This document shows, piece after piece, positions 6,143-21,399 of a stretch of DNA of 64,000 bases (positions within the stretch are counted from its first letter, which is position 1; each line of letters starts with the position of its first letter). Made by a program: the position numbers and the translations under genes. The stretch is from assembly GCF_009914755.1 (NCBI RefSeq), contig NC_060940.1. The stretch is one strand, 5' to 3'. This DNA is from the human T2T-CHM13v2.0 reference genome, Homo sapiens. Under the pieces are notes generated by a model. That model did not search any database and had not been told where the DNA came from. It was given only the letters and a program-made list of their open reading frames with translations.

Positions 6143-6215
6143 CTTCAGAGGTCTCTAAAATAAACTAAAAATGTCCCAACAGTTCAGGACATTCTTCCTG
6201 GGCTTCCTGGTTTTC
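6143..6215 (-). CDS. FAM153: FAM153-like exon 11: [19 protein letters not shown] (TAG 6157-6155) plus 12 nt of UTR
   Basis: cccatcag|G AAA...; donor AAG|gtaagt at 6142-6141. Confidence 0.85.
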
Positions 6216-6308
6216 CTGATGGGACAACAAGAATGTGAGTGTAGCCATGAAGAACATGGGCACGTCTGTGCTTCCCTCATCATTCTGCCTGCTTCCACTT
6301 CCCCTCAC

Positions 6309-6376
6309 ACTTCCGCTTCCACTTTTGTCTTTTCTGTTGCTTCTTCTGCAGGTGCAGAGGAAGGACTTGCTGACAT
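6309..6376 (-). CDS. FAM153: FAM153-like exon 10 (68 nt): [22 protein letters not shown](V)
   Basis: ctctttctcacag|...GT|gtgagg. Confidence 0.88.
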
Positions 6377-6793
6377 CTGTGAGAAAGAGAACAATTGTGC
6401 ATGTCCAGAGACGCCAGTGCAAGAAAAGTTCTATCTGTTAAGGGGGTGCCCAGAGCAGACCAGATGTTACTGGGGGTCCCTCCAGCAGGGTGGGGTCCAG
6501 CTCTTCTGACCCCAGCCCAGTCCCCTCCCTGGACCCTGAAGTGTTGTTCAGCAAGATTGAAAGCTGCAACCTGGGGGCCAGTGAACAGGGCAATGCCAAG
6601 GCAGTGGGCAGGAGGGCTGGAGAGGATTTTATTGACACTGAAGACCCAAGAACCTCAACTGTGGGATGAGACCAGGTTCTTCAGGAGAACAATCAGAAGA
6701 GAGGGAAAGAGGAAAAGGACCAGAGCTAAAAAAGGAGCTCATGAGTCAGAAAGAGGATAAAAGAGAGAGAGCATATAAGAGGAGATCAATTAC

Positions 6794-6831
6794 CTGCTGG
6801 TGGCCGCCTGTAATGGTGGAGTCTTCCAATT
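6794..6831 (-). CDS. FAM153: FAM153-like exon 9 (38 nt): (E)[12 protein letters not shown]
   Basis: cttcacag|...CAG|gtaatt. Confidence 0.85.
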
Positions 6832-9800
6832 CTGTGAAGCAAGCATCAGAGTGTCTGGAGGAGCAGTGGTGATGGGGTGGCCATAAGAAGGAAAGGGGAG
6901 AGTTAGAGTCGAGACAACCACTCAGACCCTGCTGTTCCAGGGCTGTGGAGCCAACCCCAGAGCCTCTGATGTGCTCATTTCTGGAGCCTTCTCCACAGCC
7001 TGTATCATTTCTTCTGTGCTATAAGGGAGGGATCTCTGACTTCCCACATACTTGCCCAGCCCTCACATACCATCACTGAGCCAAGGGAGGGTAAGCCGCA
7101 TCATTCTGTTCCTCCAAGAGGCAGCCACCCTCTTCACAACCTTGTGCATGACATGGAATTCCCTCCCTCCTCGTCCTGTAGGGCCTGCTTCTGTTCCCTC
7201 ATGAATCCCATTTCCTTTCTCCATGTGGACCTCCACCAGTCCTACTGTTCTCCAAAAGAAGAATATCAGAAAGAAGGTCAAGGCTTCACTTCCAGGGCCT
7301 ACAATCAACCGACGGATCTCACCCTGGGTCGGCAGCACCTCCCACAGGCTTGGGGTTGTGTTGGGGCCTGTGGGAGGCAATGATGGCTGATGTCACAGAT
7401 ACAGTGACTGTTCTATGCCTGGAATGACCTTAGAGACTTGGAAAATATTCAGCCCTCAAAACAATCCCATCAGCTTCTGAATATTTGGAAACAATGGAAC
7501 AGAATTCAGAGTAAAGCCCCTTGTCCCAGTTGCCTTAATCTGCAGGTGAGGCCAGCAGTTTTCAGCACAGAAATGAGGGGGCCCTCCCAGGGTTTGCCTG
7601 AGCTGTGGGAAGACTAAGAGGGAGGGCACCTGGCAGACCTGACACAGAGAACAAGCTGGGCCTGACAGGAGTATGGGGAGCAGGACAAGGCTGCTGGGCC
7701 AGAGAGGAGGGTGTGACAAGATAAATGACCCCGTGCCAGCTGCCCAGAGGCTCTGCCCTGGGCCCAGTGGATTCCAGGGACCAGGCTACACAGACGGTGA
7801 GAGCCACTGCCTACAGCAACACAGCAGCCCCTCCACATATATCCCCTAGGATTCCTGCCAGCCACAGAGGGCCTTGAGCTACAGCTGGACTCGGGCCTCT
7901 CCAACGAAAACCAATTTAGGTTTCATTCAAAGCCCAAGGATTTGGGATTGGATGGGACTGGGTGAGGAGTGGAGGCCAAAAATGTGCTCAATCATGTGTT
8001 CGGCCCTCAGGACTCCAGGATGCTGGGGCACACGTATGAATTCCAGAGGAATGATTCCCTATGTCATCCAACCCAGGGAGCACCCTTAGAGCAGGAGCAG
8101 ATGGTGAGGACAGGACAGGAAGGTGCTGTTGCAGGTCCTGAGAGTGTAGAGAAAGACAGTGGGCTCCTTTCATCTCCTGGCACATGTATGAAGGACTTTA
8201 CCTTCAGGATTACGCAGCACCTGGAAGGGGCTCTGTCCCACCCCACACTCAACTTTACACCTGCATACTCATCTTGTGATCTCTATTCACAAAAAAATGC
8301 TACCTCATCAAAACCCAGGGCTCTGGTGCTTGCTGTGGCAAAGGCAGAAATGATCTGGTCCTCTGCAAAATGTAATCTTTAAACACCAGAGCAAGAAATG
8401 ATGGTGACAAACACAACTCACACAAAGCCCATAAGAACACAACTCTTACAACTTTGTCATTAAGATACAAAAAAAAAAAAAAAAAAAAAAAACCCAAGTC
8501 AGACTTCTATACCTGTTTCCTTTCATATTTAGTCACTTCATTGATCCCATCCTAGGCTCCAAAACAAGTGTAACCCAATCTCCAAGAACGCTCTCTCACT
8601 GATCAACCCTGGGGTGTTGGTCCCTACCTGACCAGTCTATTTCCTCCTGGATGGATCCAGAGGTAGTGCCCATGAGCCCATGTACAGAGACACAAACATC
8701 AACATGACTGCTTTGTCCACTATGATTCTCCCTGGGCTCTGTGAACTCAGGGGACTTTATGAAGGCACTGCTCACAGCTGTGCACCTTCAGGTGAGACAG
8801 AGGACCTGAAATAATCCCTTTCAACTGTTCACCGACACTGGCTCATAGCATCTCTTACCTCCAATCTGAGAACCTGAGATTAAGCCTTGATGCACATGCA
8901 CTGAGTTAGGTGGGTGCACTGAACAGAACCTGGGCCAGACTCCCAGCAGCTGCTTCCCAGGTGATTCTGGGAGAATGGAGATGGTCTCTTAAGAGTAGAC
9001 ATTTGGCAACTGGGAACTTCTAGCATGGCTCTTGTGAGGAGGTTTTGAATTTTTTCATTTATTTAAATATGAATGGGCACATATGCCACTCAGGACCACA
9101 CTGGAATGCACAGGTCTAAACCCAAAGATGAGGAAGATGTGACTCTCCCCCCTGGTGATTCCTGGCAGAGTGGTTTGCTGCTCTGATCTGATCATTTATG
9201 GATAGGTGCTTCAGGGGCACAGGAACAAGCTCCAGGCCCCCTGTGAAGTGCAGGGATGCCACAACAAAAATAAAAAAGCCTGGTCCAGCAAAGGAGGGCT
9301 TGTAAACAGAAAAAGAGCATCTTCTGCAAGGAGAAAAGGTGAACCAATGTAGCCAGAGTAGAGATGAGGGGGACTCTTCATTGACTTCAGGACCCCACCC
9401 TATTCTCCTGTGACCTTGGATCAGAATCCATTCAGGTTTCTAGATTACCATGAGAAAAAACAGATTGAAGGAGATGAGCAGGAAGCCTTTTCACACTGGC
9501 GCTGGATCTCAGCAAAGGGGTTGGAAGCATTGGAACATTACTGGGGCCCAAGATGGGCTGCCAAGGGCTGAGCTCTGGGATGACAAGGAATGAGGAGGAC
9601 ATAGTCCTTGCCCTCCCATTGACGAGCCATGGCCAGGATTCATCAACACATAAGTAAAACAAAACAGAATTTGAGACTAATAATTCCAAGACTATCTCAG
9701 AGAAACAGGAAAAGTCTTGTCTTATAGGTCACATGGGAGAGTTGCAAGGACCACCTGGACTCTGGAGCAGCCCCTCTCCCTTGGCTGAGTTCACCTTGCA

Positions 9801-20555: not shown

Positions 20556-20850
20556 GCCAGGTGTGGTGGCTCACCCCTGTATCTCAGCACTTTGGGAGGC
20601 CAAGGCTGGCAGATCACAAGGTCAGGAGTTTGAGACCAGCCTGGTCAATATGATGATATGGTGAAACCCTGTCTCTACTAAAAATACAAAAATTAGACAG
20701 GCATGGTGGCAGGCACCCATAGTCCCAGTTACTTGGGTGGCTGAGGCAAGAGAACTGCTTGAACCTAGGATGCAGAGGTTGCAGAGAGCTGAGATCATGC
20801 CACTGCATTCCAGCCTGGGTGACAGAACGAGACTCTGCCAAAAAAATAAA
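20556..20850 (+). mobile_element. Alu (AluS-like)
   Basis: Full-length Alu with A tail. Confidence 0.92.
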
Positions 20851-20852
20851 AT

Positions 20853-21140
20853 GTCCAAGTACTGTGGCTCATGCCTGTAATCCCATCATTTTGGGAGTCC
20901 AAGGCAGGTGGATCAGGAGGTAAGGAGTTCAAGACCTCCTTCGCCAACATGGTGAACCCCTGTATCTACTAAACATACAAAAATTAGCCAGGCATGGTGG
21001 TGGATGCCTGTAATCCCAGCTACTCAGTAGGCTGAGGCAGCAGAATTGCTTAAACCTGGGAGGTGGAGGTTGCTGTGAACCGACATCACACCACTGCACT
21101 CTAGCCTAGGCAACAGAGCAAGACTGTCCAAAAAAAAAAT
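20853..21140 (+). mobile_element. Alu (AluS-like), head-to-tail with the preceding Alu
   Basis: Full-length Alu with A tail, directly after the previous element's tail. Confidence 0.9.
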
Positions 21141-21368
21141 TGGCATTGGAAACAGTGCGTTTTTCTAGAAAAAAATCATTTGAGGCAAAAATCTTGATAG
21201 AAGAATTAAAAAATACAAATTGAGTAATAAAACTCTAAAACATATTTAGAAATCTGTGGACAAATAGGAGCTGGGAAAATAAAAAATAATCAGAATGACA
21301 TTTAACATACAGAAAAACTGGCACATCTGAAGAAATTGTGGTCAGAAGATGGAAATGAACATACATAC

Positions 21369-21399
21369 CTCTGAGGCAGCAACTACAAACATTTCCCAT
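21369..21399 (-). CDS. FAM153: FAM153-like coding exon 1: [10 protein letters not shown](G-)
   Basis: Kozak-like cacaATGG and donor G|gtatg. Resembles FAM153B MGCAYSCCLE. Confidence 0.8.

What the first reader, a model, noticed from the sequence alone, without database searches (positions are those of the whole stretch)
6155..21399. Hidden micro-exon FAM153-like gene with an intact 159-aa ORF if its single damaged exon is skipped
Seen in sequence: the gene is invisible to the ORF track because its exons are only 25-135 nt. The only stop codon (TGA, 19162-19160) is in exon 2. That exon is symmetric (135 nt, phase 1-1) and has also lost its phase-1 GT donor (G|ttatc). Joining exons 1 and 3-11 (31+59+25+71+31+71+25+38+68+61 = 480 nt) gives [159 protein letters not shown]. 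The Kozak context is good. The last junction is only 12 nt past the stop, which should escape NMD by the 50-nt rule. Inference: an apparent pseudogene ~8 kb from alpha satellite could still encode a protein. Caveats: the exon 5 donor is a weak GC, and ten short exons can stay open by chance.
Basis: partly seen in the sequence, partly recalled or inferred. Interest (0 to 1): 0.85.

Follow-up and report, generated by a model that had tools for sequence, protein, structure and literature searches.

The report
Transcribed FAM153 pseudogene copy, chr16 pericentromere
This is an already annotated, transcribed duplicate of the FAM153 gene family beside the chromosome 16 centromere; its family-type exons can still be joined into an open 159-codon frame, but its known transcripts are spliced differently and nothing shows that the frame is kept by selection.

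Summary
Ten minus-strand exons (25-71 nt) join into 480 nt, 159 codons plus stop. The TGA at 19162-19160, the lost exon-2 donor, the GC donor of exon 5, the start context and the 12 nt after the stop are all as stated.

- The locus is not hidden. RefSeq lists it as transcribed pseudogene LOC107987382, "protein FAM153B-like", NR_171659.1.
- It is one of two inverted copies, 99.3-99.6% identical; the other is FAM153DP.
- Exon 2 need not be skipped. The annotated 81-nt form ends 9 nt before the TGA and stays in frame.
- Exon 2 is not the only lesion. The exon 5 donor is GT>GC, and an AG absent from the chr5 copies lies 23 nt upstream of exon 9.
- Both annotated chr16 transcripts use that upstream AG and leave exon 10/11 unspliced. 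Their frames from the same ATG stop after 118 and 66 codons.
- dN/dS against FAM153A is 0.77 (0.43-1.49).
- A stop-free frame is expected in about 35-50% of neutral decay runs.

Verdict: an ordinary unprocessed transcribed pseudogene. A minor coding isoform is not excluded.

The parts
21369..21441 (-). Exon 1 (RefSeq). The ATG is at 21399-21397 and the coding part is 31 nt. The donor is GTATGT.
   Evidence: The ATG and a Met-Gly start followed by a Cys-rich stretch are also present in the three chr5 copies.
19171..19251 (-). Exon 2 as annotated: 81 nt, acceptor TTTTAG, donor GTAAGA, in frame and without a stop.
   Evidence: The acceptor AG reads AA in the chr5 copies and in the chr2 relative.
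19105..19239 (-). It carries TGA at 19162-19160, a 9-nt gap relative to chr5, and TT where chr5 has the GT donor.
16840..16898 (-).
16086..16164 (-). Exon 4. The family form is 25 nt (16164-16140, donor GTACAT; chr5 has GTACGT). The RefSeq form is 79 nt, with donor GTGACA. Both forms are in frame.
14047..14117 (-). Exon 5 (71 nt). It matches Pfam PF15722 positions 44-70. Its donor is GC where FAM153A and the chr5 distal fragment have GT. It is absent from both annotated chr16 transcripts.
13578..13608 (-). Exon 6 (31 nt). It is absent from NR_171659.1, but its homologue is present in the FAM153DP model.
11856..11926 (-). Exon 7 (71 nt), used in both models.
11368..11394 (-). Exon 8. The family form is 25 nt (11392-11368, AG acceptor). 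RefSeq draws 27 nt, and the dinucleotide before that start reads AC.
6794..6854 (-). Exon 9. The family form is 38 nt (6831-6794). The annotated form is 61 nt and starts at an upstream AG that reads GG in the chr5 copies. The extra 23 nt shift the frame.
6226..6376 (-). Exon 10. The family form is 68 nt (6376-6309, donor GTGAGG) and matches Pfam positions 88-114. The RefSeq RNA runs on unspliced to 6226.
6143..6215 (-). Exon 11. The acceptor is conserved with chr5 and the family stop TAG is at 6157-6155. Twelve nt follow, then a GTAAGT donor. The exon is 33 nt shorter than in the chr5 copies, and the difference is in frame.
29572..64000 (.). Arrays of a 171-172-bp tandem repeat, with copies 73-81% alike. 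The name alpha satellite rests on the period and on my recall of the monomer.

Best explanation
The locus is an unprocessed (segmentally duplicated), transcribed pseudogene of the FAM153 family. RefSeq knows it as LOC107987382. It is the near-identical inverted twin of FAM153DP, in the chromosome 16 pericentromeric duplications.

It was copied with its introns from a FAM153-type gene. It has since drifted about as fast as intron sequence. It keeps the family's start codon, stop codon and most micro-exons.

The exons fall into blocks whose lengths are multiples of three. For that reason many exon combinations stay in frame, and an open 159-codon join survives.

Splicing has been re-routed by changes at splice sites (direction shown for the first two below, inferred for the rest):
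- The family exon 2 has lost its donor. It is replaced by an 81-nt form with an acceptor not present in the chr5 or chr2 relatives.
- The exon 5 donor became GC, and exon 5 is skipped.
- A longer exon 4 is used.
- An AG upstream of exon 9 adds 23 nt and breaks the family frame.
- The short intron between exons 10 and 11 is not removed.

The RNAs on record therefore carry only a truncated frame from the conserved ATG. That frame is 118 codons on NR_171659.1, with its stop 52 nt before the last junction.

Shown: the anatomy, the homology, the splice-site differences, and the frames of the annotated RNAs. Inferred: that the RNA is non-coding or unproductive, and that the open join is inheritance plus chance.
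For: Annotation: RefSeq gives a transcribed pseudogene with a BestRefSeq RNA.

Homology:
- The locus is 99.64% identical to FAM153DP over 17.2 kb.
- Window 1-31858 is 99.26% identical to the inverted stretch chr16:33036229-33004372.
- It is colinear with FAM153A, FAM153B and FAM153CP, introns included, at about 85-93% identity.
- Pfam PF15722 matches e5 and e10.

Lesions:
- TGA where chr5 has a Pro codon in e2.
- 2 of 21 family splice sites have lost the essential dinucleotide (e2 donor, e5 donor). About 1.4-2 losses are expected at the neutral rate.
- An AG upstream of e9, absent from the chr5 copies, is used by both annotated chr16 transcripts.

Frames of annotated RNAs from the shared ATG: 118 and 66 codons. 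All 8 of 144 splice combinations that stay in the family frame to the family stop need the 38-nt e9 and a spliced e10/e11. Neither annotated RNA has these.

No constraint detected:
- dN/dS is 0.77, bootstrap interval 0.43-1.49.
- Exons differ at 12.6% and their 250-nt flanks at 9.9%, p = 0.09.
- In introns the chr16 and chr5 lineages changed equally: 72 versus 70 derived sites of 2474.

Chance: 35-49% of simulated neutral copies remain stop-free.
Against: - The ten family exons carry no stop and no frameshift. The only length differences from chr5 inside coding exons (9 nt and 33 nt) are multiples of three.
- With intron indel rates (my arithmetic), I estimate an open frame after neutral decay at roughly 0.1-0.3. 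That is not large.
- The start context is strong, and the Met-Gly/Cys-rich start is shared by both lineages despite 7-8 of 31 nt differing.
- The 81-nt exon 2 removes the stop from the mature RNA.
- Exons 9 and 10 differ from chr5 at 2.8% against 5.7% in their flanks. This is not significant, p = 0.26.
- Only two transcript models were available. They do not exclude rare isoforms.
- dN/dS was measured against a paralogue, not along the chr16 lineage alone.
Confidence: 0.8

Rival explanations
1. One reading: a minor isoform built from family-type junctions is translated into a short acidic FAM153-like protein that ends at the family stop. Depending on exon choice it would be 159 codons, or 125-204.
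For: - The open 480-nt join exists in both chr16 copies, which differ at 2 residues.
- 8 of 144 splice combinations stay in the family frame throughout.
- The start context is good.
- The stop lies 12 nt before the e11 donor. The FAM153DP model splices from that donor to downstream exons.
- The FAM153DP model uses the canonical 25-nt e8.
Against: - Neither annotated RNA uses the 38-nt e9 or splices e10/e11.
- The e5 donor is GC in a weak context.
- The upstream AG precedes the family acceptor of e9 by 23 nt.
- There is no sign of constraint.
- The two copies are too alike to count as independent retention.
- RefSeq curators class the locus as a pseudogene.
Confidence: 0.08
2. The annotated RNA itself is translated from the conserved ATG. 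The product would be a 118-residue protein with the family's N-terminal half and a short out-of-frame tail. It might be membrane-bound through its Met-Gly/Cys-rich start.
For: - The 118-codon frame starts at the first ATG of NR_171659.1, and no ATG is visible in the 42-nt leader printed.
- The Met-Gly start fits the N-myristoylation pattern as I recall it; this was not tested.
- The start is shared with the chr5 copies.
Against: - The stop lies 52 nt before the last junction, at the edge of the 50-55-nt decay rule. The rule itself is established knowledge.
- The 27-nt e8 of this model has an AC before it, so the model may be imprecise there.
- The frame loses the Pfam-matching C-terminal part.
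- There is no constraint signal.
Confidence: 0.07
3. The RNA acts as a non-coding regulator, for instance of the chr5 FAM153 genes, and the open frame is irrelevant.
For: Only that the locus is labelled as transcribed and is 85-93% identical to the chr5 genes.
Against: No structured RNA family matches window 1-30000. Nothing was found in print on this locus.
Confidence: 0.05

Closest known systems
FAM153DP (chr16:33014797-33040542, transcribed pseudogene)
   Same: It is a near-identical inverted copy: 99.64% over 17.2 kb and 99.26% over 31.9 kb. It has the same exons, the same TGA in e2, the same GC donor and the same upstream AG at e9. It also has the same projected 159-codon join, with 2 residue differences.
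   Different: Its Gnomon model skips e4, uses a 157-nt cryptic exon that ends where e5 begins, includes e6, and continues into downstream exons. The frame from the ATG stops after 66 codons.
FAM153A (chr5, the family member listed as protein-coding in this annotation)
   Same: It has the same exon borders, the same start-codon exon, the same stop codon and a Pfam PF15722 match. It is colinear including introns at about 85-93%.
   Different: - FAM153A has a 144-nt open e2 with a GT donor.
- It has an extra e7-like 80-nt exon (Pfam positions 10-37), an extra e8-like exon and further middle exons.
- It has three e5-e6 units instead of one, and 33 more nt in e11.
- Its chain from the e1 ATG is open for at least 355 codons.
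- 58 of 480 aligned coding nt differ.
FAM153B and FAM153CP (chr5, transcribed pseudogenes in this annotation)
   Same: Same family and exon plan. They carry the same status label as the window's locus.
   Different: They belong to the chr5 lineage, about 8-10% from the chr16 copies in introns. They keep GT donors at e2 and e5.

Membership tests
FAM153 family (Pfam PF15722) | Match to the family profile at or above its cut-off of 27 bits | tested here: met
   The e10 piece scores 31.8 bits. In the whole-genome scan the window scores 36.8 bits at profile positions 88-114. The e5 piece scores 26.7-26.8 bits, or 27.3 with its neighbours.
FAM153 family (Pfam PF15722) | Coverage of the whole 114-position profile | tested here: not met
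   Only positions 44-70 and 88-114 match in the window and in FAM153DP. Positions 10-37 match in all three chr5 genes but in neither chr16 copy. The joined protein could not be scanned as a whole.
FAM153 family (Pfam PF15722) | Shared exon-intron plan, start codon and stop codon with FAM153A/B/CP | tested here: met
Unprocessed (duplicated) transcribed pseudogene | Introns retained and homologous to those of the parent-type gene | tested here: met
   Megablast blocks of 0.7-4.8 kb at 84-93% identity span introns and exons.
Unprocessed (duplicated) transcribed pseudogene | Disabling change relative to the parent-type coding sequence | tested here: met
   - In-frame TGA in the family e2.
- e2 donor reads TT and e5 donor reads GC.
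- Frame-shifting upstream AG at e9, used by the annotated RNAs.
Unprocessed (duplicated) transcribed pseudogene | No purifying selection on the frame | tested here: inconclusive
   dN/dS is 0.77, interval 0.43-1.49. Exons are no less diverged than their flanks. Both are pairwise against a paralogue, and no ape orthologues were available.
Unprocessed (duplicated) transcribed pseudogene | Transcription | not testable with these tools
   This rests on RefSeq's label and on NR_171659.1, marked BestRefSeq. No reads were available.
   The frame from the ATG runs 118 codons on NR_171659.1. It runs 66 codons on the first nine exons of the FAM153DP model.
No paper names the locus.
Escape from nonsense-mediated decay (50-55-nt rule, established knowledge) | Stop codon less than about 50 nt upstream of the last exon junction | tested here: met
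On NR_171659.1 the stop is 52 nt before the last junction, which is borderline.

The most novel reading that the evidence does not exclude
The two recent chr16 copies (this locus and FAM153DP) are not dead. In some tissue they would yield a short acidic protein from the conserved exon-1 ATG, carrying a Met-Gly/Cys-rich start that could be lipid-modified. On this reading the 81-nt exon 2 would be a splice variant that rescues the frame from the stop codon. That would make this a young pericentromeric protein-coding pair with a simpler exon plan than the chr5 genes.
Probability: 0.07. Interest if true: 0.4.

Novelty: already known. Interest (0 to 1): 0.15.

Why it matters
If the frame were translated, it would add a young protein-coding pair 8 kb from centromeric satellite. 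It would also be an example of splice-site change bypassing a stop codon. As it stands, the locus is a useful caution. Gene families built of short exon blocks in multiples of three keep open joins long after splicing has moved elsewhere. An intact projected frame alone is therefore weak evidence for coding.

Tried and rejected
- Whole-genome DNA search with the 15.4-kb locus. Alu matches swamped it: 35 of 32,218 candidates were scored and the FAM153 paralogues were not listed. I fetched the paralogues by their gene coordinates instead. The search did reveal a 71-74% relative on chr2.
- Rfam scan of window 1-30000: 0 matches.
- Six-frame ORF list for 5000-29500: 6 ORFs of 112-137 aa, with no relation to the locus noticed by eye; none was searched.
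- Polarising exon changes with the chr2 relative as outgroup. Introns gave 72 versus 70 derived sites. Only 109 exon sites passed the alignment filter (6 versus 5), so no lineage-specific statement about exons is made. A hand count on e3 that seemed to favour the chr16 lineage was dropped for that reason.
- Exon excess divergence as a sign of positive selection. Overall it is not significant (p = 0.09). The e1+e3 excess (p = 1.3e-4) was picked after looking.
- Literature. 0 papers hold FAM153DP, LOC107987382 or NR_171659. Of 112 papers with any FAM153 name, I saw the listing of 30. I read one passage of PMC13465055, which calls FAM153B a pseudogene. 3 papers pair FAM153 with segmental duplication; I saw only the listing and none looked relevant. 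Supplements are closed, so junction or peptide tables there could bear on translation and I could not see them.
- Not run: protein database search, Atlas search, solved-structure search and structure prediction of the joined product. The joined protein may not be typed. Single exons give at most 26 residues, which would only see proteins of about 14-45 residues. A blank there would mean nothing.

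
Full report
**What is there**

On the minus strand between 21441 and 6143 lies a chain of eleven short exons. Joining e1 with e3-e11 gives 480 nt, 159 codons and a TAG.

- TGA at 19162-19160 in the 135-nt exon 2.
- TT instead of a GT donor after that exon.
- A GC donor after exon 5.
- A at -3 and G at +4 of the ATG.
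- Twelve nt and then GTAAGT after the stop.
- A 171-172-bp tandem array from 29572 onward, 8.1 kb from the annotated 5' end.

**Identity**

Translated pieces of e5 and e10 match Pfam PF15722 (FAM153) at 26.7 and 31.8 bits, against a cut-off of 27.

A six-frame scan of the whole reference with that profile gave 18 matches. They fall in FAM153A, FAM153B and FAM153CP on chr5, in FAM153DP and this locus on chr16, and in one fragment at chr5:181.24 Mb. Neither chr16 copy matches profile positions 10-37, which all three chr5 genes match.

RefSeq already lists the locus as transcribed pseudogene LOC107987382, "protein FAM153B-like", with the curated RNA NR_171659.1. So it is not hidden.

No paper in the library names it, FAM153DP or NR_171659. 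One passage of PMC13465055 calls FAM153B a pseudogene and says the family's function is unknown.

**Relatives**

- The locus is 99.64% identical to FAM153DP over 17.2 kb, with 43 mismatches and 7 gaps.
- Window 1-31858, including the first satellite repeats, is 99.26% identical to chr16:33036229-33004372 in inverted orientation.
- The twin has the same projected 159-codon join with two residue changes. It is too recent a duplicate to count as independent retention.
- Against the chr5 genes the locus is colinear, introns included, at about 85-93%.

With the chr2 relative (LINC01120 region, 71-74%) as outgroup, intron changes split evenly. There are 72 chr16-derived and 70 chr5-derived sites out of 2474. 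That is about 3% neutral change on each lineage.

Yes.

In FAM153A the same borders give an open chain from the exon-1 ATG to the shared stop, at least 355 codons long.

The exon-1 ATG, with a Met-Gly start and a Cys-rich stretch, is present in all copies. In FAM153A and FAM153B the 144-nt exon 2 is open. In the window that exon has TGA where chr5 has a Pro codon, is 9 nt shorter, and has TT where chr5 has the GT donor.

1. The annotated exon 2 is a different, 81-nt form (19251-19171).
   - Its acceptor AG reads AA in the chr5 copies and in the chr2 relative.
   - Its donor GTAAGA lies 9 nt before the TGA.
   - It is in frame and stop-free, so the stop never enters that RNA.
2. Exon 2 is not the only lesion.
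   - The e5 donor is GC, while FAM153A and the chr5 distal fragment have GT.
   - The e4 donor reads GTACAT against GTACGT in chr5.
   - CGG in chr5 reads CAG here. This gives an AG 23 nt upstream of the family acceptor of e9.
3. The recorded RNAs follow these changes.
   - NR_171659.1 uses the 81-nt e2 and a 79-nt e4.
   - It skips e5 and e6 and uses the 61-nt e9.
   - It runs unspliced past the e10 donor.
   - The FAM153DP model also uses the 61-nt e9 and retains the e10-e11 intron.
   - From the shared ATG the frames end after 118 and 66 codons. On NR_171659.1 the stop is 52 nt before the last junction.

**Which splice choices keep the frame?**

I enumerated 144 combinations of the observed and family-type choices.
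- Sixteen reach the family stop.
- Eight of those are in the family frame throughout, by my reading of the table: the other eight include e6 without e5 and so read e7-e8 out of frame.
- In those eight, exon 2 may be skipped or 81 nt, exon 4 may be 25 or 79 nt, and e5+e6 may be in or out.
- All eight need the 25-nt e8, the 38-nt e9 and a spliced e10/e11.

This reflects the family's build. Blocks e3+e4, e5+e6 and e7+e8 are 84, 102 and 96 nt, all multiples of three. The critical point is therefore the 3' end of the gene, and both annotated RNAs depart from the family pattern there.

**Chance and selection**

- Random AG...GT/GC segments of the same lengths and phases would be jointly open with probability 0.004. 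The frame is inherited, not accidental.
- The proper null is decay from a coding ancestor. After 20, 29 or 58 random substitutions, 49%, 35% and 14% of simulated copies stay stop-free. About 16 substitutions are expected on this lineage at 3%.
- Allowing for indels at intron rates (my arithmetic, an inference), an open frame is expected in roughly one case in three to one in ten.
- dN/dS against the FAM153A homologues is 0.77, with bootstrap interval 0.43-1.49 and 58 of 480 nt different.
- Exons differ at 12.6% and their 250-nt flanks at 9.9% (p = 0.09).
- Two of 21 family splice sites have lost an essential base. About 1.4-2 losses are expected if the sites are unconstrained.
- None of this shows constraint. 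None excludes weak or past constraint either.

**Points for the coding view**

- The ten exons carry no frameshift.
- The only coding length differences from chr5 are 9 and 33 nt.
- The start is well placed.
- e9 and e10 are somewhat less diverged than their flanks, 2.8% against 5.7%, p = 0.26.

**Verdict**

The best reading is an ordinary, already annotated, transcribed unprocessed pseudogene. Its projected open frame is a legacy of a modular micro-exon gene, and its splicing has moved away from the family pattern.

A minor translated isoform remains possible at low probability. Only junction-level RNA, ribosome or peptide data can test it.

I could not search protein databases or fold the joined product.

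Noticed in passing
window 1-31858 and chr16:33004372-33036229 (L023, L024, L001, L002, L025): The whole left half of the window is an inverted duplicate of the FAM153DP region about 1.4 Mb away, at 99.26% identity. It includes the first satellite repeats. The duplicate runs off the window's start, so its full size was not measured.
   Followed up: partly
window 29572-64000: Arrays of a 171-172-bp repeat with copies only 73-81% alike, interrupted at several places. This looks like divergent monomeric centromeric satellite rather than a homogeneous higher-order array.
   Followed up: no
window 11393-11396: RefSeq's exon 11368-11394 starts 2 nt upstream of the family AG acceptor, so the dinucleotide before it reads AC. 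The FAM153DP model uses the normal 25-nt exon. The extra 2 nt set where the 118-codon frame ends. No explanation was found.
   Followed up: partly
L003-L015 (FAM153A and FAM153B on chr5): In FAM153A and FAM153B the frame from the exon-1 ATG (Met-Gly, Cys-rich start) is open through the 144-nt exon 2 into the exons that follow. In FAM153A it stays open to the family stop. As I recall, the listed proteins start further down. If so, an N-terminally extended form, possibly lipid-modified, may be worth checking.
   Followed up: partly
L021 (chr2:131836001-131844000, LINC01120) and L022 (chr5:181238001-181243000, next to LINC02222): Two further FAM153-related fragments. The chr2 one is 71-74% identical to the e2-e4 region. 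The chr5 distal one is 89% identical to the e5-e6 region and matches Pfam at 28.6 bits.
   Followed up: partly
window 21369-21399 and 16840-16898 against FAM153A: The first two coding exons differ from FAM153A at 18 of 90 nt, while their 250-nt flanks differ at 69 of 989 (p = 1.3e-4). The contrast was chosen after looking. Which lineage changed could not be settled.
   Followed up: partly
window 14530-14837: A masked 308-nt repeat sits where colinearity with the chr5 genes breaks. The chr5 genes carry an extra block of about 8-9 kb there, with an e7-like and an e8-like exon and further middle exons. A repeat-mediated deletion or insertion could explain the simpler chr16 exon plan.
   Followed up: no
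L003-L020 (chr5 genes): FAM153A and FAM153B each carry three e5-e6 units, and FAM153CP one, all about equally far from the single chr16 unit (10-11 of 71 nt in e5). The copies printed differ from one another at only a few bases (my reading, not counted by a script). This suggests the repeat expanded, or was homogenised, on chr5 after the split from chr16.
   Followed up: no
genes.tsv, chr5:176606717-176670819: FAM153B is labelled a transcribed pseudogene in this annotation, although its exons 1-4 read open in T2T-CHM13. Only FAM153A is listed as protein-coding.
   Followed up: no
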